Below the pieces are notes generated by a model. The model was not told the DNA's origin. It searched no databases and saw only the letters and a list, made by a program, of their open reading frames with translations. A DNA stretch of 64,000 nucleotides. Origin: Schmidtea nova (Eukaryota). Numbering within the stretch: the stretch's first letter is position 1; every line of letters starts with the position of its first letter. Shown here piece after piece: positions 19,701 to 62,711 of the stretch. A program made the translations under genes and the position numbers. The DNA is taken from contig CM097882.1 of NCBI GenBank assembly GCA_044892505.1, positions 522,164,001 to 522,228,000 on the forward strand, given 5' to 3'.

Positions 19701-20434
19701 CCATTACAAGACCAACACCTTGTACCAAACTTCTTAAAACAACGTTCAGCTACGTGGCCAATCTTATCGCAATGAGTACAACGTCTTACTTTGTTATATA
19801 CAACGTTGACACATTCAATGTCTTGAAATCTCGTATTCATCATTGTCCGTGTTATCTGAACAATTTCCTCCATCGGCATAGTATCAATCTTTGGAGTAGC
19901 CTGCAACAATCTCGACAATTCTTTAGGTAGTCCTACGACAAACGCGTTCCTAACGGAGTTCTCATTTACTCTTGCAAGCTTTGCATGAAATCTTAGATCG
20001 GCCAAAAATACATCCACATATCCTCCAGTCCATCTACAATTTCTCATTTTTTCGTATGATAAAAACATACTTGGAGAAAAAGCTTTTTCCAATGCATCCT
20101 CGATTGCTTCAAAACTAGCCTTGTCCTTTTCTGATAAATGTTCGTAGACGGCATATGCATCGCCTTTCAAAAGAGTAGACATAAAAACTTCTATAGTTTT
20201 TATCTTCAACATCTTTACAATTGATTTGAGTTGAGCAACCAGCTTGCAACATTGCCGGTTCCATCGAATTTTTCCAGATATTTCAAAAACTTCCATCGAT
20301 GACCGCGATAGCTTGTAGTAAAAATTATTAACGAGTTTTTGAATATTTATTTTTATAACATCAACTGCCTATTAAAACAATTGATATTAAATTAAACAAT
20401 AATTAAATTAAGCACGTAAATTAAATTAAGCACA
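16759..20434 (-). mobile_element. Compact LTR retrotransposon D (3.68 kb), 121-bp LTRs, TSD AAGAC
   Basis: Near-identical LTRs at 16759-16879 and 20314-20434 (TGTGCTT...ACTACA); 5-bp TSD AAGAC on both sides; PPT-like GGGGAGA next to the 3' LTR; gag with two knuckles, RT (LDLKNAYLQ, YIDN), RNase H, integrase with HHCC finger; several frameshifts. Confidence 0.93.
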
Positions 20435-28062: not shown

Positions 28063-28843
28063 TGTTGGGTATTTGCGATGTTTAGTCGGTGCTGTTAGTC
28101 TGACTCCTGGTGTTCTTTAAATTTGATTCAATAAAATAACCCAACACAGAAGAATTTATTTGTAACAATCACACTTTTTGACACACTAAGTCTCTTTAAA
28201 ATTTCACAATAACTTTTATCACTGCTTCTCCGACTTCGCGTAGGGATAAGTCTCCCCAAGGAAGATCTCCCTTTCTGGTACGCTGGAATAATAAATTTGG
28301 TTTGGAACTTTTCAAATATCGCTCTTAACTCCTCGCTTGCTAAATTCAAACTTTAGTATTTGTCGTTCCCTTTTATACTGCTTCTGATGATTGGTTTCCC
28401 ACTTCGCTGGAGCTGTCAAATGGTAGTACGATTTGACGTTTTAATTTTCCATCTGTCGGTTACTCTTCGGGTCTCCTCCAAAGTTATTTTTCTCAGGAAT
28501 TATTACCTGTCATATTGCTTGTCCGGGTTTCCCACACTCTCCGGGTTCTCCATTGTCTCGGGTTTCCCATTTGCTCGGGCTTTCCCTTAGCCAATTAATT
28601 ATTAATTAATAATTTAATATTTCAATTATTTCTTTCTGGGGACCCCCCATTGACTTTGTTTTATTATTTTTGGATTCGTTTCAATATTCGGCATCCACCC
28701 ATACCAATTTCCCCCGCTAATTCTCGGTTTTCGAATTTTACCTAAATTTTAATTAATTTTGAAAATTTTATACTTTATTGATTTTTACTAAGTTTTTATG
28801 ATTTTTATTTTTGTATTTTTCTAATTTTTACTAAACCTCAACA
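28063..28843 (-). mobile_element. LTR (781 bp, TG...CA) preceded by a polypurine tract, i.e. a 3' LTR of a minus-strand element
   Basis: Minus strand reads AGGGGAGAGG-TA-TGTTGAGG...ATACCCAACA; layout related to the 2.5 kb and 44.8 kb solo LTRs; flanks do not form a TSD. Confidence 0.75.
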
Positions 28844-31978: not shown

Positions 31979-33442
31979 TCAATCCATTTTTATCTCCATT
32001 CGATTTGATCCATGCTTGTACCGAACAATTGTTTCTTCTCGTTCATAGATAACACCGCTGTATAATATGGTTTTGCTAACTTCAATTGTCGAATCTGCTT
32101 TCCTTTTCAACTCGTTTACTTCTCTAGGCATTGGGCCATATTCTAACGTGGGTTGGAGTTTCACAATGTTCCAGTTTGGTATTGTTTCCAGACTCTCTTC
32201 AACTGGATTTATCAATGTTTCCACTGGATAACTTAGATCAATAATAGGAACTTCGCTCTCTTCCATTACTATGTCTTCACTTGTTAGATCTATTGCTTCC
32301 ATAGCCATGTTCTCCGGGATTTGTGCTAACTTTTGCCTATCGGTTCCTTGAGTTAATTTGGATGTGTTGGCATATAAATTTTTGTATTCCTTTAGAGAAT
32401 ACTTTCTTGATGGTTGTTTTCTGGGAATCACTATATCATCAATCCATTGATTCTCTACCCGTTGGTATATCTTCCGTATCGTTTTGACATCCTCCAGCGC
32501 AGAGTGTATCCCAACCTGCGTTTCTTCTCTGCATATTTCCCGTGCTACCGTCTGCAGCTTGAACCACTCTCCTCTTCTGGTTACGTTCATTCTTTGTAGT
32601 ATTTGTGCAGCTGCAAGATCCCGTATCCCATACAGTTGATCTACCCATAATCCCACATACTGTAGTTCGGCGTGTAAATCGTGGCCTATTAATATTTTTC
32701 CCACTGTTAGCCTCTGAATATCATTCATTTCCGAATATTGATCATGCTGATTTCTGCTGGCTACCTCTGTAATTCCATGGATCTTGGAATTGAAATGGCC
32801 AATTTTTCCTCTTGGGGTCAAATACACGTCTTTAATTATTTTTCCATGGTAATTTATCATCGCAACTGATAAAGGGATCATTCTTTTCGTTTCCGATGTG
32901 GCATATTCCGCGTCCACGAACATTATTCTGTTCCGAATTTCTTCCATATCCATTTCTTTCCTAATGAATGAGAGTTTCCTTTTTAACATTTCTGCTGATA
33001 TTTTCATCAACGTTGAATCCTGTTCCTCTGATGGCTGTGCGCTTGGCCTCTCATTTGGCTCGTTTTCTATTCTTGTTTCTATAACAATGATTGTTTCCTC
33101 ATTCGCTGCGCGTATAGGTTTCGCCATGATTTCCTTTTGGATCTTCCAGGACAAAAATTTCTTCAATTCCATCCACGGCTGATTCCCGTCCATTATTTCT
33201 ACTGTTCCTTTGATAACATGTAGGTAATATTGTTCTTTATTGGATATTCGAACTTTGTCCGTTAGCTTCATTCCCATCTTTCGGTGTATTCTGAGTATTT
33301 TAATTTTCATTTTTCGGTCGTCGATTCTGAAATAATTTGGGATTTGTAAGTTGTCTGTAATCTGGAATTTTTGCCCTGCATGGCGTCTTTGCAGCTTTGC
33401 ATAGCTGTCTAATGTGGATCTTGCCCATTGAATTTGTTCCAT
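31979..33442 (-). CDS. 487-aa protein with a DEDDh 3'-5' exonuclease domain (REX4/ISG20-like)
   Basis: ExoI FVDAEY, HGIT, ExoII LIGHDLHAEL, ExoIII HSALED; open and intronless. Confidence 0.85.
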   Translation of the reverse strand: MEQIQWARSTLDSYAKLQRRHAGQKFQITDNLQIPNYFRIDDRKMKIKILRIHRKMGMKLTDKVRISNKEQYYLHVIKGTVEIMDGNQPWMELKKFLSWKIQKEIMAKPIRAANEETIIVIETRIENEPNERPSAQPSEEQDSTLMKISAEMLKRKLSFIRKEMDMEEIRNRIMFVDAEYATSETKRMIPLSVAMINYHGKIIKDVYLTPRGKIGHFNSKIHGITEVASRNQHDQYSEMNDIQRLTVGKILIGHDLHAELQYVGLWVDQLYGIRDLAAAQILQRMNVTRRGEWFKLQTVAREICREETQVGIHSALEDVKTIRKIYQRVENQWIDDIVIPRKQPSRKYSLKEYKNLYANTSKLTQGTDRQKLAQIPENMAMEAIDLTSEDIVMEESEVPIIDLSYPVETLINPVEESLETIPNWNIVKLQPTLEYGPMPREVNELKRKADSTIEVSKTILYSGVIYEREETIVRYKHGSNRMEIKMD

Positions 33443-33849
33443 TCTTACTGAAATATTTATAATTAAAGGTTTATCAATATAAAATTTGAAGCTAGGGTTA
33501 AGATGAAGTGCCCAAAGGGTACTGTCTTACCTGTAGCTGTATATATATAAATATTAATAAAAAAATTACCAATTTAAAATTTTGAAATCGGATTTATTTA
33601 AAAAATTTTAAGTTTAAAGGATAAGCGCTTCTTTATATGCTCTTACAAATTTTCTATGACCTATTTCCTACTTTCCTACTCCCCCTTGTCTTTTAGTGTT
33701 AGCCAATCAAATTTATTCTTCCTTTCTTTCGTCGGAGAAGCAGTTTTACATAAACATTGATGATACTATCACTGAAAACACTGAATAAAATGTAAAAAAT
33801 AATACTACTACTACGTTATCAAAATTGCATGCAAATTAATCATGTCTTA

Positions 33850-36800
33850 CTACACAATTGTTTCTTCATAGATCATCCAAGGTCTCGAAGGCTCGGATTG
33901 AATCGTAGGTCTGTATATTTTTATCGATTCGCAAAAGACAATAGCGCCAAATGTGATGAGAAAGATTGTTAGGATAATGATGGTTATAAATAATATCACA
34001 CACGCGATTTCTTTGTCATTGTTTAATAATGGTATAGTTTTATTATTTACAATTGATTTATTGGTGATGTCATTGAAAGGCGTTGTCATCTGATTTTGGT
34101 ACAGTGTATTTGAATCGCTGTCATTTATCTTGTCGTAAAAGATTTGGACGAACTTGTCCTCGACTAAAGTTACTCGCCATAGATTAGAATACGAGGTGCG
34201 ACGCTGATATTTGATTTTCATAAAGACAAATTTTGACCTTGACTTTGATCGTAGTTGTTGAAATGTTAATATTTGAGATTTATTGCTGCTGTCTAAGATT
34301 GCCTGAACTTTTCCACAATAGTATATAATAGCTTTTTGATTTGGGTCTGCTCTCCAAGTAACATTTATTAGTTGATGGTATATATAAAACTGAACTCGGT
34401 TCGTTTCGTTGATCAATTTTATCGTTTGTTGACTAGACTGAATTTCAATCCATAGATTATCACTGACGGTTCCATTATCATATAAGGATTTTTCATAATA
34501 ACGAATCAAGATATTATATGTCTGAAATAATTTCAAATTATCATAGTTTATAAAGGGTTTTCTGCTGTTCAGCGTGTCTATAGCATAATTCTGGAAGACA
34601 GTTTTCACTTGTTGGGTTTCTTGTGGTTCCCAATGTACATTAATTCCATTCACAACGGGTTCAATCGAAACAAGATGCTCTAACCTTTTCGTCCAAACAT
34701 CGAGATGTACCATATTATATATTTTTGTAGTGTTCCCTTTAGAGCTTAATTGTGTTATTAGCCACTGATATTTATAATTCATCGTTAATTGCCGTGCCAC
34801 GTGAATGTTTTTATTATAATTCAATCTAACTGGGGGTTCAAAATAATCTAGTAAATTATTTACTTCAATTTCCTCTTCCCTTTCACCGTGAAAAAACCAT
34901 ACGATCTGGGTACATGTTGCATATATGTGAATTTTATCCATCAATGGGATTCTTTTTGTTGCATACGAGGGAAAAACTCGTATTTCACTTGTACAGAAGA
35001 CATTTGCCATCATTATTGTTGAAATCAACAAGACTTTGTTGATATAGTTTAGTGGAGCTGGGTTTTTTGTAAATTTTTGTTTTACTGCTCCTTCTACGTC
35101 TTTAATTAGTTTTGATCTCAATGGATATCGTCTTATTTCCTCCGACGGAACTTTCTTGGACCGGTTTACATGAACAATTATTGTTCCAGCTTTTTTATTA
35201 TTCTGTGGGCGTAATTTCAAATTAATTTCTGTAGTATCACATACGATATATGGTCCTTTAAACGGTCGCTGCAATTTTGGGGATAATCCCTTTGTTGGCT
35301 CTGGTTTATTCACATATACTAAGTCACCAATTTTAATATCATGTGCATGAGTGCGCTTGTCGTAGCACTCCTTATATGCTTCTTGCTGATGTTTTATTTT
35401 AAGTCCGGCTTGAATCCAAACTGTCTGGAGTCTTTCTTGCATAATCACTTTATAATCTGATACATCCATATATTGGGAAATAGGCGACTGAAATTTCAGA
35501 TCGATAGGCATATTGTTTCTTCGTAGGTACATGAGATAGAAAGGTGTTTCACCGGTACTTTCGTTCACTGCATTTCTGTATGCATACAAACATGGTTTAA
35601 TGAATAAATCCCAATCTTTTTGTTTTCTATTTACGTATGACGATATCATATTAATTAGTGTTTCATTGAATCTTTCCACTAATCCATATGTCTGTGGGTG
35701 ATATGGTGATGTACTGATTTTCATTATTCCAAATAATTCTGTAATTGATTTGAACAATTCGCTTTGAAAATTTGTTCCTTGGTCAGTAAGCACTTTCTTT
35801 GGTGCCCCATATCGAAATATTATGTTTTCCACAAATATCTTTGCAACTGTCTCAGCTTTCTGGTTTTGCATGGGGTAGGCTTCTGGCCATTTGGTTAAAT
35901 AATCACAGAAGACAATAATGTATTTATTGCCGTTTGTCGTTTCTGGTAATGGACCGACAATATCCATTGCCGTCATTTCCATTGGTGCCACCGGTACAGA
36001 CATTGGTTTTAAAGGAACTCTAATTTTTCGTCCTGTGTTTCGTCTAGTTAAGCATATTTCGCAAATGTGACACCATTGTCTGACATCTTGTTCTATAGTG
36101 TCCCAATAGTATTTTTGTTTTAATCTTGACAATGTTTTTCGAGCTGATAAATGCCCTCCTAATGCTCCGTCATGATACAACAATAATAATGATTTTCTAT
36201 GTTTTGTTGGAACTATAATTAATAAATTTTCATTTTTTACGCATTTTAGCAAACCATCATGTATAATGTATTTATGTCTTTCCTCGACAATATGCTTCCA
36301 GTCGCTTTCTTTTCTAATTGTGACAGCATGTTGACGTAGCTGATTCAATTCATCATCCTTTTCTTGATCACTTTGCAATTCCTTCATATTATTTGCAGTT
36401 TTAATTGCCATAAATATAGTGTTTTCATACTTTGTTTCATATTGAACAACGTCCTCCTCCTCTGAAATTCTCGACAGCGCGTCTGCATTTGCGTTCGACT
36501 TTCCTGTACGATATTTGATCTCAAAATCATATTTCTGCAAAGCAATTGACCATCTTATCAGCTTACTTGCCGAGTCTCTGTGCTTCATTAGCCATTGTAA
36601 TGGGTTATGATCAGTGAAAACAACAAATTTCATACCGAGTAAGTATTGCCTGAATGTAGTTATTCCATATACTAATGCTAACGTTTCTTTTTCAATCGTA
36701 GAATAATTCTTTTCATGCGGTCTTAACGTTCGACTGGCATAAGCGATAACGTGATCTTTCTCACCTTCTACTTGTTGACCTAGTATCGCCCCTACTGCAA

Positions 36801-37587
36801 ACTTACTAGCATCTGTCATCAATAAGAATGGCCTTTTAAAATCAGGGCATCTTAATATAGGTTGTTTCATTAGGCTTTCTTTGAGTGCATCGAATGCTTC
36901 TTGTTGAACCGATGCCCATTTAAATTTTGCTTGCTTTTTCAACAGCACATTTAAAGGTTGTGCGACATGCGAAAAATTTCTTATAAATTTTCTGTAATAA
37001 CTAGCTAGTCCTAGAAATTGTCGGACTTGGTCTATATCTTTGGGAATCGGATATTTCTTAATCTTTTGTACATTTTCCGGATTCGGCTGCAATCCTCGCC
37101 GGGAAATAATATGACCTATGTAAACAACTTCAGATTTTCCCCATTCACATTTTGACGGTTTTATCTTTAGGTTTGCCTTTAACAATCGTTTAAATACTGT
37201 TCCCACATCCCTCAGATGTTCCTGAAAATTGTTTGAAAATATTATTATATCATCAATATACACTAGTGCATGTGGGATGTCCCGTAATACGAAATTCATA
37301 CCTCTTTGAAAGGTAGCCGGTGCTCCCGTTAAACCAAACGGTAAGACATTAAACTCGTACAGACCTTTACCGTCTGAATACGCAGTTTTTCTCCTGTCCT
37401 CTTCTTTGACCTTAAACTGATTATACCCTTTGTTAAGATCAATAACAGTAAAGAATTGCACCTCCCCCATTTGATCGAACATTTCTTGGGGAACTGGAAT
37501 AGGGTATGTATCTTTTCTTGTGACTTGATTTAACTTTCGATAATCTACACAGAATCGTAGATCACCATCTTTCTTTTTCACTACCAC
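33850..37587 (-). CDS. Pol (RT-RNase H-integrase) fused in frame to a signal peptide, an Ig/FN3-like ectodomain and a TM helix
   Basis: RT YIDDII; RH LMTDAS...EKE..FTDH; IN HHCC (YHDGALGGH...CEIC), MDIVGP, LTDQG, LVERFN; GPY motif; then hydrophobic KVLLISTIMMANVFC, ~320-aa N-glycosylation-rich region and TM IACVILFITIIILTIFLITFGAIVFC. Confidence 0.9.
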   Translation of the reverse strand: MVVKKKDGDLRFCVDYRKLNQVTRKDTYPIPVPQEMFDQMGEVQFFTVIDLNKGYNQFKVKEEDRRKTAYSDGKGLYEFNVLPFGLTGAPATFQRGMNFVLRDIPHALVYIDDIIIFSNNFQEHLRDVGTVFKRLLKANLKIKPSKCEWGKSEVVYIGHIISRRGLQPNPENVQKIKKYPIPKDIDQVRQFLGLASYYRKFIRNFSHVAQPLNVLLKKQAKFKWASVQQEAFDALKESLMKQPILRCPDFKRPFLLMTDASKFAVGAILGQQVEGEKDHVIAYASRTLRPHEKNYSTIEKETLALVYGITTFRQYLLGMKFVVFTDHNPLQWLMKHRDSASKLIRWSIALQKYDFEIKYRTGKSNANADALSRISEEEDVVQYETKYENTIFMAIKTANNMKELQSDQEKDDELNQLRQHAVTIRKESDWKHIVEERHKYIIHDGLLKCVKNENLLIIVPTKHRKSLLLLYHDGALGGHLSARKTLSRLKQKYYWDTIEQDVRQWCHICEICLTRRNTGRKIRVPLKPMSVPVAPMEMTAMDIVGPLPETTNGNKYIIVFCDYLTKWPEAYPMQNQKAETVAKIFVENIIFRYGAPKKVLTDQGTNFQSELFKSITELFGIMKISTSPYHPQTYGLVERFNETLINMISSYVNRKQKDWDLFIKPCLYAYRNAVNESTGETPFYLMYLRRNNMPIDLKFQSPISQYMDVSDYKVIMQERLQTVWIQAGLKIKHQQEAYKECYDKRTHAHDIKIGDLVYVNKPEPTKGLSPKLQRPFKGPYIVCDTTEINLKLRPQNNKKAGTIIVHVNRSKKVPSEEIRRYPLRSKLIKDVEGAVKQKFTKNPAPLNYINKVLLISTIMMANVFCTSEIRVFPSYATKRIPLMDKIHIYATCTQIVWFFHGEREEEIEVNNLLDYFEPPVRLNYNKNIHVARQLTMNYKYQWLITQLSSKGNTTKIYNMVHLDVWTKRLEHLVSIEPVVNGINVHWEPQETQQVKTVFQNYAIDTLNSRKPFINYDNLKLFQTYNILIRYYEKSLYDNGTVSDNLWIEIQSSQQTIKLINETNRVQFYIYHQLINVTWRADPNQKAIIYYCGKVQAILDSSNKSQILTFQQLRSKSRSKFVFMKIKYQRRTSYSNLWRVTLVEDKFVQIFYDKINDSDSNTLYQNQMTTPFNDITNKSIVNNKTIPLLNNDKEIACVILFITIIILTIFLITFGAIVFCESIKIYRPTIQSEPSRPWMIYEETIV

Positions 37588-37617
37588 GATTGAAGCTGAA
37601 AATGGTGATGAGCTATC

Positions 37618-38482
37618 TCATATTATTTTGAATTCTTTCATTGCTTTGATTTGCCTATCACTTTCTTCTTGATGAATGTATGGAATCCTATATGGCCTCA
37701 ATTTTATAGGGGTTTCGTCCAGCAATGGTATCTCATGTTCAATCACTTGAGTGAGTCCCAAATCATATTCATGTTTCGCGAACACATTCCTGTATCTCTT
37801 TAGTAGTGCTGTAAATTCTTGTTTTTGCTCATCTGTCAAATCATTACTTGTAATTTGAGGTCCTTTGTAAATCTTTATATTTCTGGGCAACCTTTGTACT
37901 TCTTCTTGTTTTATTTTTGTCAGTTTCCCGAGCTTTGTTTTGGGTTTCATCTGAACAGATTTTGTGCTACAATTTGCTAATCTTACTGGTACGGTTTTGT
38001 CTTTAACTTTTACTACTTCATCGCACATTGCTCCGTCGTACTTCTCTATTAATTTTTGATTTGGTTCAAATATACATTCATCTTCGGAGACATTCATTAC
38101 ATTGGCATAGTATATAACTTCGCTTTTTGGTGGTATTTCCAAAGTTTGATTTAAAAAAACTTGTCCCGCTTCGTGTACAACTTCACCAGTTAGTCCTTTT
38201 ATCAATTTTCCCGTTCTTAAATCAAGAGAAATTCCTTGTAATTGTTCCATAACGTCCATTCCAATCAAGCATTTGACAGGGCTTTTTCTCATTACAGATA
38301 CCCAATGAGTTACTTCTTGATTTCCAATATTCAGCTTAACTTCCAATTTTCCAACGATATTCAATACATTATGCGTCATTGATAATAATTTTCGTAGTTG
38401 GCTTTATTCTTGCCTTCTCCTGACTCGTCAAGAGATTCTCAGATACTATGCTGTGACTTGAGCCTGAATCCAATAACGCTTA
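37618..38482 (-). pseudogene. Aspartic protease and RT N-terminus of the large element
   Basis: ALLDSGSS at 38462-38470 directly after an in-frame TAA (38480-38482); 1-nt frameshift near 38400; in-frame TGA at 37618-37620 before SSSPFSASIVVVKKKDG. Confidence 0.9.
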
Positions 38483-38950
38483 AACTTTTCGTCTATTAAA
38501 TTGTATGACAATTCGAGGTTGTTTTCCTCCCAATTCTATGGTCAATAATGCATAACTACATGGTAAACCAAGCATATTCTTTCTTTCAATTTCGGCGCTT
38601 GATGGTTCAATCTTTTCTAATTCGACTTTAATCTCATCAACTGGTTTCATTTCTCTCAACTTCTCACTTGGATATACAGGAGCTGTTGGCATAAATGTCG
38701 GTGTGTACCACTTAGAGAGAGTGTCAATTCCAGTTAGTTTTGGTATTGGTTCCAGCAAGAATCTGGATTCGGGGTCTATTCTACTTTTTATTATACCCCG
38801 TCGAAACGATTTTGGCTCTGATCTGCCGCCATTGCTATCATTGTTGTGACCATTATTTTTATCCTCAAATTCGCATAGTGATTCTTCACTTTTCGGATCA
38901 TTTTTCAATTGTGCTCTAACACTTGCCATTTCCTTATATTGATGATTTGT

Positions 38951-40804
38951 AATGAAGAATCTAGCCAAAAACGGAATACAACCAATAATCATTTTCCATG
39001 ACCATCCGTAAATTGCATATATTCGATGAGCGGACAATATTTGTGATATTATTACTTTTATTGTTACTGCAACTACATAAATGCCAATTAAGCCTGCACA
39101 AGCTTGTCCTAAAAACATAAATCTTCCCCAAATTTTTTTCATTGTTTTAAATGTAGCTCGTTTAAAATGATCAGGTGTCAGCAAATATTCGTAATTAGCT
39201 TTTCCTTCTCTATTTGGCAGTATTGGATCAATCATCTCAGAAATCACTCGTTCCTTTTTTGATGGGAATAATAAATTTCTTTGGGCTTCTTCTATATCTT
39301 CGCTTGCGTATAGACCCATTTGTGCCATCTTATTCATTGATGTGAAATTTACCAAGTACTCTAAATTTATTAATTCCAATTTATCTGGAGTTCTAACTCC
39401 CCGGTATTCTGGTAACGCTATCTATGAATCTTGTGCTAAACGATATAGTGGAGCTAATAGTCGATTACATTGTAGAATTTTCGGTTTGACTTGTTCTTCC
39501 AACAATATTCGAGTTATCGGTTCCATGAATCGTAATTTCCCGCCAACACTTACCAATAATTCATTTGTACATTTCTCATATTTCGCGATTTTCACTATAG
39601 TTTCTTTGCATCTGTAACTGTATAATGCTTCTCCAAAGATCCTAGCGAATACACCATTTTATGATATTAGCATGGGTGCTACTAAATTTGGATTAGTAAT
39701 TGCCATTGCCATTCGATTTCTAAGTATTTCCTTGTTCAACTTACAGTCGTTTAGAATCATTTCTCTATATACGTTTTCCATGATGTTTTGACTAAAATGA
39801 AACAAATAGTCAATTTTATTATTGAAGTAATGAGTTAATTTGATATCATCCCGGTGAATTCTTGTTTTAGCCTCATATACGATTGTTTTAGATACATAAA
39901 CTCCTTTGTAATTTGTTGCATATACAGTTTGACCACATTTACTCGTTATGTCTTTTTTTATGAACCGCATGCTGTCTGTTGGCAATGTTGACATTAACAC
40001 TGTTGCCGTTTGTCTCGTCCAAACTTGGGTTGATCTAACTGTATTGTTCGGTTTATAATTCACATTAAAATTGTCCGGTCTTTCCCTAAATTGCTCTCCG
40101 CTCAATTCTTTGAAATTAATAGTTTTTAAATGGGATAAGTTGCATATATTAGTCTTGACATCATAGACAAGAATCGATTCTCCAGTGTGACAACTAGTTT
40201 GTTTCATATTACAGAATGGATGAGTTTGTAACTTTCCTGTATCGTCATCAAACGACCCTTCGAATACTCTCAATTCTGTTAGATATTCCTCTATTACTAC
40301 TGCTTGTTTTATCACTTGATCATTTATTTTATACGGTTCTCCCTCACAATCGCCGTCTGATTTCATTACTCCTTTCACAATTAATGTTTCTCTGATTTGA
40401 TGGTTTACTCGAGCTTTCAATCGAATTTCAGGACTAATTTTTAATTCCCCTGTTTGAAATGCCGTTAAACAGTTTTCTGGTAACACGTCCACCGGTCGTG
40501 GAATAGCATGCATTTTTATCATCGAAGTATGGCTCCATTTGCCACAAAAGAATACGAACGTGGTTCGTTTAACGATACATTCCCTAACTTGAGAACGCCG
40601 TAAATCGGATTCTTGGTAAACATGATATTTTGCTTCATTTTCAATTTTTAATTTTCTTGGGTATGCATCTGGGCATTCTGTCATATCGACCACAGAATAA
40701 ATTTTCCCCATTTCTGTTTGTGAGCAATCGTATGCCACCAATGAAGTAGCTTGTGCAATTATTGTGCATAAAATAACCATCATGAACATCACCCAAGGGA
40801 ATAT
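38951..40804 (-). pseudogene. Chuvirus-type envelope/fusion glycoprotein with signal peptide and C-terminal TM region; two in-frame stops
   Basis: Signal IFPWVMFMMVILCTIIAQATS then LVAYDC; Cys-rich ectodomain; GEALYSYRC...C.NEL.V...F.EP.TRIL...C; TM region WGRFMFLGQACAGLIGIY...YGWSW; stops at 39659-39661 and 39422-39424. Confidence 0.75.
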
Positions 40805-40891
40805 CGTAGTTTTTCTTAGTTTTGGGTCTATTTTTTCGTTCAACTTTCTTTGAGGTGGATTCTCATCTTCTTGTTTCTTTCTTTTCTTTGT

Positions 40892-41265
40892 TAAAGATGA
40901 ATTTAATGCATTCCAACCTCCAAGCTCTTTTATCCCTTTCATCAAACATTCATTTAATAGTCGAGCCGCAGTGTCAATCAAATTCTCAATCTGATCTGGC
41001 CTAGTAAATGCACGAATACCAATTTCGGAAACCATATGTGTTAAACTTGTTAACACTGTTTTTCTATCGATTCCATTTTCGATCAATTTTTCAATCCTTT
41101 CTCTTTTACAGAAATCACCCTTTTTCCAAATTCATGCTCAATTTTTGGAAGTCTCTCTTTCACTTCCTCAACCATCCCTTTCAATTCCTCCTCAGCTTCT
41201 GGTTCTATTTTTAGAATTGGGTAAACAGTTTTAACTAGGTTTCTTATTATTTCTTTAGTTTCATC
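40892..41265 (-). pseudogene. Bcl-2-like helical domain (split by a frameshift near 41095)
   Basis: BH4-like EIIRNLVKTVYPIL; BH3-like ELKGMVEEVKERL; BH1-like KLIENGIDRKTVLTSLTH; BH2-like LNECLMKGIKELGGWNAL. Confidence 0.6.
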
Positions 41266-41589
41266 AACTTCCCGCTCTATATTTACCAAATATTTCTTCA
41301 TCTCATATAAAGTTCTAGGTTTAGTACTCCAATTATTCATTTCCACTTTCTCGACATTTGTCTCTCTGCTAATTGTAGTTTCTGCTACCTGAATATTGAT
41401 TTCCTTCTGATCATCACCTTCATCGTTAGCTATTGCGGTTTCATTTTCTCCTATTTCATCTCTCTTTTCTTCTGTGTCGGAGGATTCCCCATTACCAAGC
41501 ATTCTCGGGTTAAATTCTTTATTTGCTATTATACGATTAATTAAATATCCCTGACTTCCATCAGTACTTAAATATCCATATTCATCTAA

Positions 41590-42276
41590 TTCTTGTGGTA
41601 TGCATCCACAGTCATATAAATATTCATCGTCATCCAGTGCTTCACCTTTATGTTTCAACACTATAATTCCATCTTGTCCTAACATCTTCGTAGCTCTTCT
41701 ACGTATTTTCCGCACTTTCGTACACCAATGCTCTTCTACATACTCAGTTTTTCCAATATCTTCGTATTCTATTGCAATTACTAATAAATTCATTTCTGCT
41801 CTATCTTCTCTAAGCTCCTTGCCCAATTTTCTCAGTAATCTCTTTAAATTTCTACTATATTTGGTTCTTTTAAACAGATGCGGTCGTATTACGTTGATAA
41901 TTTCTATTTTATCTTTTTGCTCAAATTCAGATTTCTCAATTAATTTCACTATTTCATTTATTTCGCTTTCATCGCCAATATATAAAACATCAGATAGCTC
42001 CTTTAACACTTCCCTCGGATCACTTTTCACCATTTCACAACTACTCCTCATATTGACTATTTGTAACTCATTTTTATCTCCTGTTATAAAACCACAGTCT
42101 ACCAAATATTCCTCGTTATCTAATTCTCTATTTTTAAATTTTAATTCTACTACCCATCCTTCGCATTTTTCTCTTAGTCTCCTTTTTAAATCTTTCACAC
42201 AATCATAGGCTTCACATCGACAAGTAATCACACTTTTATCACAGTCATTAACAACATCAATAAAAATAAAATCTAA
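41590..42276 (-). CDS. Two ubiquitin-like modules within the polyprotein (part of ORF 41083-42939)
   Basis: CVKDLKRRL...VELKFKNRELDNEEYLVDCGF and TKVRKIRRR...VLKHKGEALDDDEYLYDCGC; pattern resembles ubiquitin 'vK.ki...rLif.Gk.LeD..tL.dy.I'. Confidence 0.6.
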
Positions 42277-42779
42277 CCATCCATTTTCTCGGAATGCTTT
42301 TCCAAATGTTTTCATCAACTCTTTGATTTCATCTCTATCTGCTAAATTTATTTGATAATAGTTTGCACACAAATTAATCACGCATTTTAGTTTCCTCATA
42401 CTCAGCGACATTTGACTCAACTTTTTAATTGACATTAATATTTTGGATGATTCTCTTGCGCTAGCTTCTAGCAATTTCTCAAGTCTCTTCATCATTATTG
42501 TAACTTTTTCGCTTTCCAAATCGTCCTTTGTACAAACTCCTTTCGCTTCCGTTTCAGTCATATCCGACCCATACATCATATGATTATCTAATTCCTCATC
42601 AGATTCAAACTTAGACATTAAAAGATCCAAGCGTCGACCCATTTCTTTCACTTGATTTTCAATTCTATCATTAAATTCGTCTGATTGAACAAAAGCAACA
42701 TTTTCTGCTGGCATTCTATCATTTTGAAAACGAATTGATTTTTTTAATATTGGTTTCTGAAATTTATCGACATTTCTCG

Positions 42780-43972
42780 GGCATGATCTAGCTATATGTC
42801 CATAGCCTCGACATGAATGACATTGGATTTGGCCTTGAAGGTTCACTCTATGGCGAAGTGGATGGAGATCTCGATCTGGCAAAACAATTACGTGAAACAT
42901 GTCCTTTCCTTCCACAGTTGTAGCATTGTATATTATCATTAGTTCGTTGATCTTTAATACTAAATTTATTTAAGCTTTTTTCACTATTACCCTTCATCCA
43001 ATCTGGCCACATTCGTTTTGGGCTTCGTTGTACATTATTTTTAGACCAGCATTGATTGCTATTGTGACCAATCTTTTGACAGTGATCACATTGAATTGGA
43101 GTTGGGCTTTTTTGCGATCGGTTCTTGAACCAACATTGATCGGCATGATGTCCCATCCGTTGACAATAACTGCATTGAATTGGTTGTTCTTTTTCGTCAA
43201 TTTGAACACGTGTTGATTTATTCATCTCAAATTTTGGTCTAAATTTTGGTGATGGACAACTTGATTGCTGGAGCAGATTGTTTCTGACTGGAGAATTGGA
43301 TCTTTCTCTTGATTCATTGATAATGGCGAAGGATTCTGATTTCGGCTTTGCACTTTTTAAATTTAATTCAATTTTCATAGCCTTTTTGATTAACTCATCG
43401 AAGTTATTGAAATCTACATAACATAAGGCTTTTTTGATTTCCCCTTTTACTCCCGCTAAGAACTGATCTTGTAATAGTTCCTTTATCTGCTTTGCCACTT
43501 CAATCTGTTCCGGTTTTACTTCGAAGGCCTTTTCTGCAAGCGTGGTCAAATGGTATGCAAATTCACTTACGGATTCGTCTGATTTTTGTACTCTATTATA
43601 GAATTTCTGCCTCATTATCCGTTTTATGTCTCCTCCGACTAACTTCGCGGCTAAGGCATCTTTCAGTTTTGTCCAGTCATTGGCAATTGTCCTTTTGTCA
43701 ATTTGTTGCCAGGCTTCTCTTGCTGCTCCCTTTAAATACAGTGGTAGTCTTTGCACCATTATTGATTGGCTCCATCCATAGGCTGTGGCATACATATAGT
43801 AATCTGCCATAAAGTCGACAAATTCCACTGGATCACCCCCATATTGGTTAACTGGTAATTTTTGGCAGCTAGCATAATCATTGCCATTTCCGGTATTGCT
43901 TGTGGACATGGGTGTATCATCATGACCGTTTGGGTTGTTCATTTCGTCTTCTGGTTTCCTGTTGCTTCTCAA
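42780..43972 (-). CDS. Gag of the large element with four CCHC zinc knuckles (fourth after a frameshift near 42860)
   Basis: Retrotransposon gag-type capsid region (YGGDP.EF...F..RVQK.DESV.EF...L..LA); CSYCQRMGHHADQC, CDHCQKIGHNSNQC, CYNCGRKGHVSRNC, CHSCRGYGHIARSC. Confidence 0.9.
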
Positions 43973-44263
43973 TTCGTAAAATGGTCTGGTTGGTATAACT
44001 TTATCTCTTCTGAATTTTAATATATCAATTATAAAATTTTACCTTTTGTTGAACTGCTTTTCATGCGATACATATAACGTTGAAATATGATTTACAAAAG
44101 AAAAGATGAGTTGTATAAACGTGTTTTACGCATTTTTCGTGGTGGGGGTCACCGACGACCCTCAAGGCGCTGCAGACTATTTTTGTGATTATCAGTTGTT
44201 CCAGATTATTACGCTTAAGTTTCTAAGCAGTTATTATCATTGCTTAGTCTTATTAAGTAGTTG

Positions 44264-55389: not shown

Positions 55390-56760
55390 TTAAAAGGATA
55401 AATTATACGCTATTCCACGTAGATAGTCTATAATGCTGCGATCACGGTAGCTACGGACTATTGAAAGTATTCTTATATTTGCATCTGCATACTTCTTTCT
55501 CGACGTCTGGGATGAATGACCGGCCAGCATTTGAGCACAGTGCAATTGTTGCAGAGCTTGTTCTCTTTGGATAAATGAAATAAATTTCCAAATGGTAGGA
55601 TGGTAACTTCCTACGTTGGACTGAAAACTTCTATGCCATCCTTCCACTGCATTATTAGTTTTTGGTAATTCATATTCGGCTCTTTGGTGCATATTCCACA
55701 TGTCTATGTTATAAGTGGATTGACGTCGTCCACGCCGTTGTGGTCTGCCTATATAAAAATCTTCAAAATAATCTGCAATTGGTAAAACGTTCGCAGGAAG
55801 CAATTCGGCCAATGCTTCAAAAGCGCCGACTACATCTTCTGGAATCATCCGTATTTTTAATGCGAATTCAGAATCTTCCTGGTAACGCTGTTGAAGACTG
55901 TTTTCTTGAATCTTGCGGTAGATGTTCTGGCTTAGATGAAAGAAACATCCTTTTATTTGGCTGTCAGGAAATACTGTCTTCAAACTATTTATAACTGCCA
56001 ATTCAAAATCAACCATAATGCTTCTGGGCTTCAAGTTGACATTAAGAATACTTAATTGTTGAAAAAGTTCTTTATACGTATCTTGTCTTTTGTTCTGCAG
56101 TAATGCGTAAACACAAGGAATACATCGCCCATTAGCTAATGCGTGAACTGTATATAGATGCGTAAAAAGCATAGGAGCTGTTTTAAAAGTTCCATCCATA
56201 AACCAGTGAAATGTTGATTCCAAAAGTTTTAAATTGTTATCTGTTCCAAATATCAACTTTCTATTATTACTATCTGTACCAGAATCAAACAGAAGAAAAT
56301 TTTGGCCATCAGTTGTTACTTTATAACGTTCAGGAATTACGATTGCGTCAACATTCAGTGGCACTGGTAAAGGGTTGTTGACAACTTGACGCTGACGTCT
56401 AATATTACGACGTAAATGATGTAATGTTGTCAGCTTTGCTTTTGCACTTTCACTTATTGTAGAAACAGATTGCGTAATTATCTGCTGAGGCGTTTCTTCA
56501 GTTTCTTCTGCTAATCTTTTCATTTTTTGAACTGATTTCAGCACTTCCTTTTGTGCTGGATCTGGACCATGAGAATGGTCATTAAAGCGCCCCACAAGAT
56601 CTTCACCACGAACTTTAATTTTTGCTTTGCACTCAGCCTTGTTACGCCTTTTTTCACATTCAAATGAGACAACCCCATGAGCCAAATTTTTCTGCTTCAC
56701 ATATATATAACCTTCGAAAACTACTTTTTCCGCTCCTCTATTTGATTTCAGAAATTCCAT
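55390..56760 (-). CDS. FLYWCH-MULE transposase, 456 aa
   Basis: N-terminal FLYWCH-type finger (GYIY...FEC...EC...HSH); catalytic FMDGTF, MVDFE, CFFH, NAVEGWH; uninterrupted. Confidence 0.92.
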   Translation of the reverse strand: MEFLKSNRGAEKVVFEGYIYVKQKNLAHGVVSFECEKRRNKAECKAKIKVRGEDLVGRFNDHSHGPDPAQKEVLKSVQKMKRLAEETEETPQQIITQSVSTISESAKAKLTTLHHLRRNIRRQRQVVNNPLPVPLNVDAIVIPERYKVTTDGQNFLLFDSGTDSNNRKLIFGTDNNLKLLESTFHWFMDGTFKTAPMLFTHLYTVHALANGRCIPCVYALLQNKRQDTYKELFQQLSILNVNLKPRSIMVDFELAVINSLKTVFPDSQIKGCFFHLSQNIYRKIQENSLQQRYQEDSEFALKIRMIPEDVVGAFEALAELLPANVLPIADYFEDFYIGRPQRRGRRQSTYNIDMWNMHQRAEYELPKTNNAVEGWHRSFQSNVGSYHPTIWKFISFIQREQALQQLHCAQMLAGHSSQTSRKKYADANIRILSIVRSYRDRSIIDYLRGIAYNLSF

Positions 56761-56821
56761 ATTTAATTTTAATCGATGGTCTATAATATTGAATATTTAT
56801 TTTTTTTTTAAAAATCACTCT

Positions 56822-57125: not shown

Positions 57126-60100
57126 AGATATAATCTCTTCATAATTCATAACAATTTAACAAATTAAAATATATATTTTTAAAACAGTGCCAACTTGATA
57201 ATATTTAAACAAGGTTAATTGTTGAACATCACTCTCCTCCTCTTAATTTTCTTTGAATCTCTTCAGCCATTCAATTCTTCTTGATTTGCTTGAGTTTGGA
57301 AATTGTAATTCAACTTGTCTTGGTGATAAGAATTTTAAAATTTTGTAAGGTCCTTCATATAGGATTCCCTCCTTCTTTCGTATATGTGGTTCCAAGCGAA
57401 CTAATACTTTCTCTCCCACCGTGAAAACTCGAGTACCCCGGTGTTCTAAATCTCTATTTTGCACTGTTGTAGCTGCTTTCTCTAGATTAGTTTTTTGTTT
57501 TATCCACGATTTCTTCTTTGCTTTTTTGTATATGTCCTAATCTAGAATATAAATTAATCTTCCGACCATATACAATTTCAAAAGGTGAGAAATTTGTTGA
57601 GTTTTTGTATTGTAGCATTCAAACTAAATGCAATCTTCGGTAACAATCTGCACCAATAATTTTCTGTTCTAATCTCTGTCAATGATGTTGCCAACATGTC
57701 CCGAACTGTTCTTATGATTCGTTCTGCTAAACCATTTGATTGATGTTGATATGGTGAACTTGTGGTGGGGGTTTTATTTTGTCCGGCGGGTATGTCGGAG
57801 TTTGTGGGAAAAGTTGGAAATTGCTCATAATAGCGATATAGATTATGAACAACTGATAATCAAGTCTGTAGATGAATTGGATACTTTAATCAATACTGAT
57901 TGCAACGAAAAGCCTTCTCAATGTTCACGCTGTGAAGCAGTTTTAAATAACTCATTTGAACTTTTAGCTCATTCATATACTCAGGCTGAACATAGTAAAG
58001 AAATTGAATTGTTTCAAATTTGCCCCAACTGTAGTAGATTATTTTTCAAAAAGAAAAAACAGTAAAAGCTATTTCAAAGATCATTATAATTCTGAACATC
58101 TCAAAAAGTCACCTCCTCAATGTGATGCGGAATGGATGGAAAACTGCTCTGACTTTTCGCAAGAGGATTCACAGAATTTTTGGTCTCCAATTAATAAATA
58201 AAAACATTAATTGAAATTTATCTTTATGTTGTGCCTTGACATTAATTTTCGATATTTTATCATTCTACAAATTTTGTATTGAAGCGGATTATATGTAATT
58301 TTGATTTAAGAAATATGTTTAAATGTCGCTATTAAATAACTCTGTACAAATTTTTTATTATTATTTGTTGATAAAAAAAGTTTACTTATAAAAGTATTTA
58401 TGATATTCAGATATTTTTTTATATGTTGTTTAAATAATCATTTTTTGTAATTTAGTTTTTTTAAAAAATATAAATTTTAAATTTTGAGAGATTTGTTTAT
58501 TATACAACTTGGAATTCATTTTTTTGACAATAAATTTTATCTATAAGTAAAGGAGTTTTCAGAAACAAATTAGTTTGGAATTTTAATAACATGGCTAGTA
58601 ACCTAGAAAATGGTATCAATGTAATTACTGATCAGATGGAAAACCTTGATGTAAACTCAAATGAAAATATCAATACAAATCAAAGCTCTAATATGACATC
58701 GGATTTTAATCTTTTGAGGCGGAATTAGTATCTAGAAAATATGGTCACGATGAATTCATATAACTATGATCCATTACTTTTATCTCAAAACGTTGCCTAT
58801 TTACCTGCTCAACAGTTATCTAATAATCAAATCAATTCGTGGTATAAAACCACCAAAATGGTATAAAACCACCAATTGGTGTTCTCCATCCAATCACGAA
58901 ACATCGATCCTTCAAAAATTCTTCCTCTATCTGTAAGAATGCTTTCTGGTCTACCAAAACGATATATCCAATTATTTAAAATGACATTCAAAATTGTTGA
59001 TTTATCCTGCGTACTTGTTGCTGATAAGCTGACCAATTTACTAAAACGATCTATTATCACTATCATATATTTCTTACTTCCTTTTGTCTCCATATATGCA
59101 ATAATCACTACTATCTGTTCTAAAAACCGTTCTCCTGTTCTTGGCAATAAAGTTTCCTTTGTTCTTCCTTGATCAATCTTTCTACTAGCACAAATGTTGC
59201 ATTTATTAATACATTCCGTAATACTTTGATTCATCGATGGCCAAAAGAAAAGGTCTTCTAAATAAAATAAAGTTTTATTCATACCCAGATGGCACAGTTC
59301 AATATGAAAATAATTTACCAATGTTTTTACGTACTTGTCAGGTACTACAACTGCAAGTTTTTCATCTGCATTAGTCATCAATACGTCATCTTTATATACT
59401 TGAATATACTGCTTCTGATTGTTTCATAAGATATATGAGCCTCATTTCCATTAAGATGTGATATGATTTCTGAAATAATTTTGTCTTCGTTTTGCTGCTG
59501 TTTAATAATTTTCATAATATTTGAACTTCCTTGTAGACTATTAATGTACCGAGTTCTACATTTTGCCTCTTTGGCATCCTTGTGTTTCATCTGACAATGA
59601 GCGCATATGGTATTATTTAAACGAGACATACCATCTACATTTCCATGTTCTTCTCCCTTCCTATATTGTAACTCAAAATCGTATTCAGATAAATTTGCCA
59701 TCCATGTCTGAAACTGCGGACTTATTGGTTTCTTTGTCGTGTTCATAAACGTCAATGCCCTGTGATCCGTTCTGGCTACAAATTTTCTTCCATATAAATA
59801 TTGTTTGAAATGTACGATAAACTCGTGAAGTGCCAACAACTCGTTTCTAGTAACACAATATCCCATTTCATGTGTTGTCAAATGTATTGAACCATACGCT
59901 ATTACTCCCTCAGTACCATCTTCCTTAATCTGAGATAAAACTGTACCTATGGCTCCAAAACTAGCATCCGTATCAAGAATAAATAGTCGATCTGCCCTTG
60001 GAAATTCTAATATTGCTACTTCACACAAGAGTTTCTTTAAATTGATAAAACTTTTTCTACATTCTTCAGTCCAAACAATAATTTTATTGTTTCCTGTTGT

Positions 60101-62711
60101 TGCGGCATACAAAGGTGCTGCTATCATTGAATAATTTTTGATATACCGCCGATAAAAATTAGTTAAACCTAAGAATGACCTCAATTCTGTAACACTCTTC
60201 GGTTCAGTTGCATTTTCAATTTCTGAAATCTTTCTTTTATTTGTTTGAATTCCCTTTTCATTCACTGTATGACCAATGAAATTTAATACGCTTTTATGGA
60301 ACGCGCATTTCTCGGGATTAACTTTCAAACCGGCATCTGTAATGCGTGTGAATACTTCAAGTAGAAGTTTATCATGAGTTTCCTGATTTTCAGCATATAT
60401 TAAAATGTCATCAAGATAGACAACCACTCCTTTGAAAATTAATCCTTCCAATATCTTATGCATCAGTTTTTGAAAAGTGGTAGGAGCTGTTGATAAACCA
60501 AATGGTAACCTGTTAAAACAGAATTGTCCCTCTTTTGTACAAAATGCCGTCTTGGTTTGGGAATTTTCATGCAACTCTACCTGATAATAAGCTTGACCTA
60601 AATCAATTGATGAAAATATCTTTGATTTACCGAGACAATTCAATAATAACTGCTTGTCTGGCATCGGAAATGAAAACTTTTTTGTAACCGAATTTAATAG
60701 CCTAAAATCTAGACACATTCTTATAGAGCCATCCGGTTTTCCAACTATTACTAGTGGTGTGTTCCACGGACTCTGACATTTTCTCACAACTCCAGCTTCT
60801 AATAAATTCTGTATTAACTCTTCAATTTTGACTTCTAAATGCATGGGTTGTCTTCTTGGATTTTGTAAAGTTGGAGGACCCGAAGTCGTTATTTCATGTG
60901 TTATTACTTTTGTATGACCTAAGTCAAATCTGGATGCCATAAAAATGTTGCTAAACCTAGATATTAAAGTAACCAACTTCGAATTCTTGTCCAACTTGAG
61001 AGTCGATAAAGCAAACTCTAAACGATCAGAATCTGTAAATCTCTGGGTAATTAACGATGCATCTATATTATTGACTTCTTTAAGCTCCATGCCAAATATT
61101 CTCATGGTGTCTGCACCTCTTATAAAATCTGGATGAATTTTTCTGACAATAATAACATTCAATTCTCGACATTTGTTGTTCTATTTTGCAACGATTTTAA
61201 CGCTTCCAAGAGGTTTCTCGTCTTCTTTTGAAAATACTCCACTCAACCGTATTCTGCTCTCCATCAATTTTGGACTGCCAATTAATCTCCAACATTTCTC
61301 ACTCATCACACTGATTGAAGCTCCTGAATCCCATAGCATCTCTACATAAAATCCATTTATTTCAATCTTACTCCACTTTCTGTCATCATCCTTCTTAAAC
61401 ATCACATCCTTCTTTACAACATTTCGTTTTTTATACTCATCTACTGTCTCGACCCTAATGACGAAATGTAGACAACAGGGTCTTCTTGGTTTTTTTGAGT
61501 CTCAACATTATGTATGACTGGGGCTATCAATTCCTCTGATCTGTCATCGTCTTCTTCGTGTATACAGTACACTCTTCGTTCCAGTCTTTGTGTATTGCTT
61601 CTTGATTTCACTGACAAATTGTAATTTCTAAATGAATGACCTTCTTTACCGCATATTAGGCATTTGTCCTTCAAAGGACACTCAAATCGCATATGGTCAC
61701 TTTGTCCACAACAAAAGCATTGACCAGATCTTAACCTTTCTTCTGCTGGCTCAGGTAGACCACAATATCTATTATAAACTTTTCTTGCGATATGTTTCAT
61801 TGAAACTAACGGTGGTGGTCTACGATCCATAAATGTCCTCTCATTATATTATTCTACCACGGGTTTCACTCTATCAATTTGTCTTTCGCTTCTTTCATTT
61901 CTATTTTGATAACTTATTTCTGGTTGACGACTCGAATACATTCTATTATTTAAAGATGTTGTTTAGTCCATTGCTTCTGTTTATCTTGAGTAACGTTTGC
62001 AAAGGTTGATTTCACTACTGCCTGAACTTCTTCAAATCGTTCTTTTGCATCGTAGCCTTCTTGTGCCTCATATACTTTTGCTAAATTTCTAATTTCTTCC
62101 CTCGTGATATTAGCCTTCGTTGATATATTTTTTTTCAAACGGTCGTTCCGAACTCTGCTGCACAAAATTAGTTCCACAATATTTTCTTTTGAAATTCCAC
62201 AGTCAAAAACTTCGTCAACAAGTTTCTTTACTCGTATCTCGAATGTGATAAATCTTTCATCGTTATTTTGTTTTATTGCTGATAAGTCACAAATCTTATC
62301 TATAATGGACTTCTTTTTGCTAAATGTTTCATTAAACCATTCACGAGCTTTTTTCATTCGTTGTGGAAATGTCCTTAAATTCTTTAAATTTATAGATGTC
62401 TCTTCAGACAATAATAAATCAAAAATACTCACTAAATTTAGATCATTTAGCAGCATTCAATCTTCAATATCCTTGAGCCATTTCTCTGCTTCTACCGTGC
62501 TTCGGCCGTCGAATCTTCTGTTTAGGCAAAGATTCCATAATCATCTTTCTATGCTGGTTTCTTGTCACCGCTTGAATCGGCTCAATTTTTTCGGCGTGGT
62601 CGCCAGTTACAATCTCTTCATAATTCATAATAATTTAACAAATTAAAATATATATTTTTAAAACAGTGTCACTTGATATTATTTAAACAAAAGTAATTAT
62701 TGAACATCACT
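57126..62711 (-). mobile_element. Gypsy LTR retrotransposon B (relative of A), ~107-bp LTRs
   Basis: LTRs at 62605-62711 and 57126-57233 (AGTGATGTTCAA...); PBS TGGCGACCACGCCG overlapping the LTR by 1 nt; PPT AGAGGAGGAG; gag knuckles, LWDSGAS, RT-RH ORF 59378-61162, integrase; no matching TSD. Confidence 0.92.
57761..58881 (+). other. Foreign 1.1-kb insertion in the integrase of Gypsy B carrying C2H2-like zinc-finger coding sequence
   Basis: Integrase reads FRDWME at the right junction and SSPYQHQSNG at the left, with ~8 codons lost; insert encodes CSRCEAV...HSYTQAEH and CPNCSRL...HYNSEH. Confidence 0.7.

What the first reader, a model, noticed from the sequence alone, without database searches (positions are those of the whole stretch)
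40742..41265. Bcl-2-like domain whose C-terminal anchor doubles as the glycoprotein signal peptide
Seen: across the frameshift near 41095 the helix pattern matches BH4 (EIIRNLVKTVYPIL), BH3 (ELKGMVEEVKERL), BH1 (LIENGIDRKTVLTSL; the NWGR motif has diverged) and BH2 (KGIKELGGWNAL). A basic linker and one hydrophobic segment follow, ending just before LVAYDC. Established: Bcl-2 proteins are tail-anchored, and many large DNA viruses carry diverged Bcl-2 homologues. Inference: signal-peptidase cleavage would leave a membrane-anchored Bcl-2 mimic, giving the retroelement an apoptosis or autophagy modulator. I know of no such case in LTR elements but cannot search.
Basis: partly seen in the sequence, partly recalled or inferred. 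Interest (0 to 1): 0.85.

Follow-up and report, generated by a model that had tools for sequence, protein, structure and literature searches.

The report
Bcl-2 domain in flatworm retroelement polyprotein
A virus-like jumping gene carries a diverged copy of the cell-death regulator Bcl-2 just ahead of its envelope protein, a layout already reported for planarian Burro elements, and the hydrophobic stretch between them is likely the envelope's signal peptide, which would leave Bcl-2 tethered to a membrane.

Summary
The Bcl-2 domain is real, but the layout is known. The region lies in a broken copy of a multi-copy 17-kb gypsy element whose intact relatives encode one 3,402-aa gag–insert–Bcl-2–env–pol protein. 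Seven of 8 sister sequences hit Pfam Bcl-2; the window's own subfamily does not. An AlphaFold model of a 75%-identical natural copy (pLDDT 72) matches Bcl-2 folds at ranks 1–29 (top Z 11.5). dN/dS between families is 0.18–0.42, so the domain is constrained, though it evolves about ten times faster than env. A BCL2-like motif followed by in-frame env was described for planarian Burro elements (PMC6431247), and this scan noted it twice on other genomes. The hydrophobic segment looks like env's internal signal peptide (aligns to the glycoprotein model's N-terminus; small residues at −3/−1 in 8 of 8; a second such segment follows integrase), not a captured Bcl-2 tail. Anchoring and anti-death activity are untested; BH1 W-G-R is lost and this subfamily lost a BH2 tryptophan. 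Side finding: a Polinton-like element in the same genome captured Bcl-2 separately.

The parts
42848..44038 (-). gag (Retrotrans_gag, CCHC knuckles); 5' LTR missing, copy starts at about 44060
41400..42700 (-). conserved insert between Gag and Bcl-2; two ubiquitin-like motifs by eye, no Pfam hit
   Evidence: (dN/dS 0.18)
41266..41316 (-). extra helix ahead of the Bcl-2 domain (BH3-like in three sister families)
40895..41265 (-). Bcl-2-fold domain (helix 1/BH4 41212-41253, BH3 41149-41187, BH1 41042-41086, BH2 40904-40939); frame broken near 41120 in this copy
40805..40894 (-). charged linker (34 residues from the BH2 Trp to the uncharged run, 11 K/R)
40742..40804 (-). first hydrophobic segment of the polyprotein; predicted internal signal peptide of env, predicted cut after A-T-S
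38480..40741 (-). env: Monjiviricetes-type fusion glycoprotein (PF24664) with C-terminal TM; stops at 39661, 39424, 38482 in this copy
35040..38403 (-). PR-RT-RNase H-integrase; frame break near 38383 and stop at 37620 in this copy
33850..35040 (-). second signal-like segment, ectodomain and TM after integrase; no Pfam hit
31979..33526 (-). separate ORF with a weak DEDDh exonuclease (RNase_T) hit
   Evidence: E 4e-4, under cut-off
28063..28843 (-). 3' LTR (about 810 bp)

Best explanation
The element encodes a Bcl-2-fold domain inside one gag-env-pol polyprotein, and the hydrophobic segment behind it is likely env's internal signal peptide, whose predicted cleavage would leave the domain tethered to the cytosolic face of the ER, where it likely acts as a pro-survival decoy for host Bcl-2-family or other BH3-bearing proteins. 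Steps shown: domain homology and fold, one open frame in intact copies, purifying selection, four hydrophobic segments in the same order in five families. Steps inferred: the first segment threads env into the ER lumen, env's TM stops transfer so that PR-RT-IN lie in the cytosol, signal peptidase cuts two residues before the AYDC motif, the element's protease frees Bcl-2 from Gag, and the domain dampens death or autophagy signals in the producing cell. Odds by step: Bcl-2 fold 0.97, env signal 0.85, lasting tether and host-death modulation about 0.5.
For: Fold: model of natural copy L057 (75% identical to the window's subfamily), mean pLDDT 71.6; VIA-align ranks 1-29 of 48,161 chains are all Bcl-2 folds, top Z 11.5, rmsd 3.3, 122 of 130 aligned, best unrelated Z 6.1; Foldseek rows are all Bcl-2 family, best E 5e-3, TM 0.56. 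Sequence. Selection: whole-domain dN/dS 0.42 (95% 0.24-0.73), 0.31 and 0.18 for three family pairs. One origin: the 10 LTR-borne rows form one clade, 96/96, kept across families whose RT is 49% identical. Signal: PF24664 match begins inside the hydrophobic segment (model position 5 at ORF residue 115); small residues at -3 and -1 before xxAYDC in 8 of 8 sequences, with the letters varying; no other strong hydrophobic segment upstream in 4 of 5 families, the exception being Bcl-2's own core helix; an unnamed metagenome fragment P0005 (39% identical env) keeps BH2-linker-segment-AYDC. Precedent for signal left as anchor: HCV core-E1 (PMC5402940, abstract). Planarians have Bak/Bcl-2 orthologs and mitochondrial apoptosis (PMC7022251, passage).
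Against: BH1 N-W-G-R is D-R-K-T here and the Gly position is charged or Asn in all 9 family representatives; that this Gly matters for BH3 binding in Bcl-2 is recalled, not tested. The first BH2 Trp is Gly in 26 and Arg in 2 of 30 copies of this subfamily, which is also the one sequence of 8 without a Pfam hit. The domain evolves about ten times faster than env or RT (0.38-0.47 against 0.01-0.03). The uncharged run is 12-17 residues in families C, E and P0005, short for a stable anchor. An ER-inserted signal does not by itself reach mitochondria. Only 1 of 5 models reached pLDDT 70, and a first model of the window's own subfamily was poor (53.6) with TetR proteins on top of its fold search. 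The -3/-1 rule is recalled; no signal-peptide predictor was on hand, the 8 sequences are related, and P0006/P0007 look like chimeric gene calls.
Confidence: 0.48

Rival explanations
1. The domain is freed from the signal remnant (by the element's protease in the charged linker or by signal-peptide peptidase, as for HCV core) and acts as a soluble, anchorless Bcl-2-fold protein, possibly outside apoptosis like poxvirus A46/A52/B14.
For: Long charged linker of 33-45 residues and short h-region in several families; integrase is followed by the same kind of segment and must work unanchored; degenerate BH1; non-apoptotic viral Bcl-2 folds exist (PMC7022251, passage).
Against: No protease site was identified; the uncharged run is 27 residues in the window's family, long enough to anchor; the model is closer to cellular-type Bcl-2 (Z 9-11.5) than to A46/A52/B14 (Z 4.9-6.3).
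Confidence: 0.22
2. The Bcl-2 fold has been repurposed as a structural, matrix-like link that holds Gag on the membrane where env is inserted, aiding budding; it no longer binds death regulators.
For: It sits between Gag and the first membrane segment in one frame; internally deleted derivatives that lost env and pol keep gag-insert-Bcl-2-segment and transposed recently (LTRs 99.7% identical); groove motifs degenerate.
Against: A structural part should be conserved like Gag (dN/dS 0.04-0.08) rather than 0.4; BH2 GGW is altered in 5 of 7 derivative ORFs read.
Confidence: 0.15
3. The domain is a decaying passenger in the window's subfamily, kept only because the frame to env and pol must stay open.
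For: BH2 Trp lost in this subfamily, no Pfam hit, poor model of this subfamily, among the fastest parts of the polyprotein.
Against: dN/dS below 1 between this family and its sister (4 of 2,000 bootstraps reach 1); hydrophobic core positions kept across families; retained in all five families found.
Confidence: 0.1

Closest known systems
Burro / GYPSM1 gypsy-like LTR elements of dugesiid planarians (Jurka 2007; Grohme et al. 2018, both not seen; as summarised in PMC6431247, section 7 read whole)
   Same: One polyprotein: Gag with CCHC knuckles, then a BCL2-like motif, then an in-frame mononegavirus-type env, then PR-RT-RH-IN; Ubi/SUMO-like motifs before BCL2 (here by eye only).
   Different: About 17 kb with a 3,402-aa ORF instead of over 30 kb and 4,873-5,140 aa; no MATH, BIR or ankyrin hit; second membrane protein after integrase and a DEDDh ORF. 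The section does not discuss signal peptide, anchor, fold or selection.
GAG-ENV-POL errantiviruses with HSV/gB-type env in Platyhelminthes (PMC13524379, passages)
   Same: env between gag and pol; ectodomain flanked by a signal peptide and TM, or by two TMs.
   Different: The main text has 0 occurrences of 'bcl' or 'Burro'; supplements not read.
Cellular and viral Bcl-2 proteins (trBcl-2L2 6yld, canarypox CNP058 5wos, Bcl-xL 3spf)
   Same: Helical bundle in BH4-BH3-BH1-BH2 order; Z 11.0-11.5, rmsd 3.3-3.4.
   Different: 11-15% identity; BH1 WGR and BH3 G-D degenerate; embedded in a polyprotein; the membrane segment is followed by a glycoprotein.
HCV core-E1 junction (PMC5402940, abstract)
   Same: A cytosolic domain ends in the next glycoprotein's signal sequence and is left ER-anchored after signal peptidase cleavage.
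   Different: Analogy only; there the domain is the capsid and is later released by signal-peptide peptidase.

Membership tests
Bcl-2 family | Bcl-2 helical-bundle fold | tested here: met
   Model of sister copy L057: ranks 1-29 all Bcl-2 folds, Z 11.5, rmsd 3.3, 122 aligned. The model of the window's own subfamily was too poor to decide.
Bcl-2 family | Sequence homology over BH1-BH2 (PF00452) | tested here: met
   7 of 8 sister sequences hit, 3 at or over cut-off; profile against PDB E 8e-8.
Bcl-2 family | BH motifs in order BH4-BH3-BH1-BH2 | tested here: met
   BH3-BH2 by hhalign; helix 1 by structure only; BH4 is a weak motif (PMC7022251).
Bcl-2 family (canonical pro-survival type) | Intact BH1 N-W-G-R groove motif | tested here: not met
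   D-R-K-T in the window; no Gly in 9 of 9 representatives. Several host-type Bcl-2 ORFs of this genome also deviate, so this lowers only the 'canonical' claim.
Bcl-2 family | C-terminal tail anchor | tested here: inconclusive
   One hydrophobic segment follows, but it aligns to the glycoprotein model's start and is short in 3 of 6 families.
Bcl-2 family | BH3 binding or control of apoptosis | not testable with these tools
   Needs binding and cell assays.
Burro elements | BCL2-like motif followed by env, in frame between gag and pol | tested here: met
Burro elements | Giant size (over 30 kb, ORF near 5,000 aa) | tested here: not met
   About 17 kb LTR to LTR, 3,402 aa; filed as compact Burro-like, not as Burro proper.
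Burro elements | Ubi/SUMO-like motif before BCL2; dUTPase-like between PR and RT | tested here: inconclusive
   Ubiquitin-like motifs by eye; no Pfam hit for either.
Burro elements | RT groups with Burro-1 to -4 | not testable with these tools
   No Burro reference sequence was returned by any search.

The most novel reading that the evidence does not exclude
Planarian mobile elements are in an arms race with host cell death: an enveloped LTR lineage releases an ER-anchored, fast-evolving Bcl-2 decoy by using env's signal as its anchor, and a Polinton-like element in the same genome has separately captured a tail-anchored Bcl-2, so that many hundreds of element copies could tune apoptosis in a highly regenerative animal.
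Probability: 0.3. Interest if true: 0.7.

Novelty: new member of a known kind. Interest (0 to 1): 0.36.

Why it matters
The presence of the domain is in print, but only as a motif annotation. This work adds a fold, selection, a single origin and a processing model, which makes the open proposal that Burro elements meddle with host apoptosis (PMC6431247) testable with a 130-residue domain. If active, it would be an anti-death protein carried by a retrotransposon in an animal that depends on regulated cell death. The separate Bcl-2 capture by a Polinton-like element suggests repeated selection for this cargo.

Tried and rejected
Single-sequence and profile searches of the large protein collections found no relative of the Bcl-2 domain (one search gave one repetitive, evidently spurious protein); these searches are weak for a domain inside a 3,400-aa protein. 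Env searches of viral and metagenome contigs gave nothing, so range outside this genome rests on P0004-P0009. No RNA holder listed; expression and splicing stay open. Complex prediction with a host Bak-like BH3 helix: no answer, score 0.01, alignment not used. First model (window subfamily plus extra helix) was low-confidence: Foldseek no E under 1e-3 though top rows were Bcl-2; VIA top was TetR, Z 7.6. ESM Atlas gave only a weak lead, Bcl-2-like protein 15 at 0.75. The viral structure library was not searched. The shuffle control ignores relatedness and is not used as a statistic. No host donor gene could be assigned. Grohme 2018 was not held. Paper searches (listings) found no paper on the signal/anchor model or on Bcl-2 in Polintons; subscription journals and supplements were not seen and may bear on both.

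Full report
Context. The finding lies on the minus strand inside a gypsy-type LTR element: gag with CCHC knuckles, an insert, a Monjiviricetes-type fusion glycoprotein (PF24664, E 5e-36 and 4e-25), then PR-RT-RNase H-integrase. The window copy has a 3' LTR at 28063-28843, lacks the 5' LTR, and is broken near 42850, 41120 and 38383 and by stops at 39661, 39424, 38482 and 37620. Other copies in the same genome are about 17 kb, with 810-bp LTRs 99.3-99.9% alike and one open 3,402-aa frame. Of the 30 closest copies, 22 are open across the region of the finding. The host is inferred to be a planarian from the element type. All folds and profile searches below use natural open-frame copies; the window copy itself was not folded.

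Is it Bcl-2? The window's pieces give no Bcl-2 hit (0 of 3). A PF00452 search of the genome scored 150 of 1,679 candidates; of the top 30 loci, 16 are LTR polyproteins in which the Bcl-2 match sits in the same place, before a hydrophobic segment and xxAYDC. With further searches this gave five families, A (the window's) to E. Seven of 8 aligned sequences hit PF00452, among them copies 60-75% identical to family A; the miss is family A itself. The family profile matches human Bcl-2 and Bcl-xL at E 8e-8 over BH1-BH2 (2e-6 with the larger alignment). A first AlphaFold model (family A, with an extra upstream helix) was poor, pLDDT 53.6, and its fold searches were inconclusive. A second, of copy L057 (75% identical) on an alignment of 21 element sequences only, reached pLDDT 71.6 in 1 of 5 models. 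Against 48,161 chains, ranks 1-29 are all Bcl-2 folds, top Z 11.5, rmsd 3.3, 122 of 130 aligned; the best unrelated chain has Z 6.1. Foldseek agrees without reaching E 1e-3.

Is it under selection? Nei-Gojobori estimates on one young open copy per family give whole-domain dN/dS 0.42 (95% 0.24-0.73) for A against B, 0.31 for D against E and 0.18 for D against C; the last two are near saturation. Env, RT and integrase are at 0.01-0.05 for A/B and D/E, the acidic spacer at 0.49. So the domain is constrained but fast, which fits a host-facing protein or relaxed constraint alike. The 10 LTR-borne rows of a 21-row tree form one clade (96/96) with no clear host donor. Against full canonical function: the BH1 Gly position holds no Gly in 9 of 9 representatives, and the first BH2 Trp is Gly in 26 and Arg in 2 of 30 family-A copies, 2 not read.

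Anchor or signal? All five families have four strong hydrophobic segments in the same order: after Bcl-2, at the end of env, after integrase, and near the C-terminus (family B shows one more, Bcl-2's core helix). Alternating them puts Gag-Bcl-2 and Pol in the cytosol and both ectodomains in the lumen (inference). The glycoprotein model's match starts inside the first segment. Small residues stand at -3 and -1 before xxAYDC in 8 of 8 sequences (A-T-S, T-T-S, G-N-A, S-T-G, C-T-G, A-N-G and two more), the recalled signal-peptidase rule; these sequences are related and two are doubtful gene calls. P0005, an unnamed metagenome fragment with 39% env identity, keeps the same layout. The uncharged run is 27 residues in A and B, 21 in D, but 17, 14 and 12 in E, C and P0005, and integrase is followed by a like segment. 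The segment is thus best read as env's internal signal, not a captured Bcl-2 tail. Whether it stays as a tether is open: in HCV the same arrangement first anchors core and is then cut by signal-peptide peptidase (PMC5402940, abstract).

Mechanism. Most likely the polyprotein is inserted at the ER by the first segment, signal peptidase frees env, the element's protease trims Gag away, and a membrane-tethered Bcl-2 decoy dampens death or autophagy signalling in the producing cell (about 0.48 overall). Rivals: a released soluble domain (0.22), a structural Gag-to-membrane link (0.15), a decaying passenger in this subfamily (0.10). No call gives evidence on binding, expression or processing.

Known? 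Yes in outline. PMC6431247 (section 7 read whole) states that a BCL2-like motif was noted in Burro-2, -3 and -4 by Grohme et al. 2018 (not held), that env lies in frame between BCL2 and PR, and that meddling with apoptosis deserves testing. PMC13524379 (passages) reports GAG-ENV-POL elements in flatworms without mention of Bcl-2. PMC8532177 (passages) shows BURRO1 is PIWI-silenced and expressed in differentiated cells when silencing fails. PMC11410931 (passages) notes gypsy expansion in planarian genomes. Two earlier notes of this scan on other genomes reach the same reading; they were seen after my reading was set and are not independent evidence. The element fails Burro's size feature, so it is filed as a compact Burro-like member. 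Seven paper searches found no account of the signal/anchor model.

Verdict. Observation confirmed, interpretation partly supported, new member of a known kind, interest 0.36. The Polinton-like element with Bcl-2 and TBP in its inverted repeats deserves its own look.

Noticed in passing
G000:C1:676072-690844 (L166+L167); also L168/L169, L174/L175: A 14.8-kb Polinton-like element with 3.8-3.9-kb terminal inverted repeats (99.5% alike in 3 of 3 read), AGT...ACT ends and a 6-bp target duplication. Each repeat holds a Bcl-2 ORF (PF00452 over cut-off, with its own hydrophobic tail) and a TBP-like ORF; the core holds a 1,427-aa PolB-like ORF (motifs by eye) and an adenain protease; no integrase, capsid or ATPase ORF seen. 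Most of 150 scored matches appear to belong to it. Its Bcl-2 groups with host-type L066 (94/93), apart from the LTR clade. No paper found; possibly more novel than the finding itself.
   Followed up: partly
L127, L145-L146, L151-L165: Internally deleted derivatives of a sister family lost about 6 kb (env, pol, second ectodomain), join the first hydrophobic segment to the last TM, and keep gag-insert-Bcl-2; 40 of 40 scored matches span the joint; LTRs 99.7% alike in the one copy checked.
   Followed up: partly
window 33850-35040 (-): A second signal-ectodomain-TM protein follows integrase in all five families, no Pfam hit in family A, dN/dS about 0.2; candidate attachment protein.
   Followed up: partly
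L070, L071, L121 just upstream of the Bcl-2 domain; window 41266-41316: Families C, D and E carry a BH3-like helix (L-R/K-E-I-A pattern, no Asp) ahead of the Bcl-2 domain; it could fill the domain's own groove or bind host Bcl-2.
   Followed up: no
L140:2229-4445, L142:1900-3846, L144:2460-4367: Families C, D and E have a 636-739-aa ORF of no known family behind the polyprotein, where families A and B have the DEDDh ORF.
   Followed up: no
L065, L067, L177:1395-1577 (-): Host Bak-like exons, with a BH3-like exon about 11 kb upstream of L065; the Bak label is recalled.
   Followed up: partly
window 5986-9924 (+), 57200-62500 (-), 16761-20434 (-), 55390-56796 (-): Other elements in the window: two related gypsy copies in opposite orientation (70-75% alike), a decayed gag-RT-integrase element with 119-bp terminal repeats, and a MULE transposase with FLYWCH finger.
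   Followed up: no
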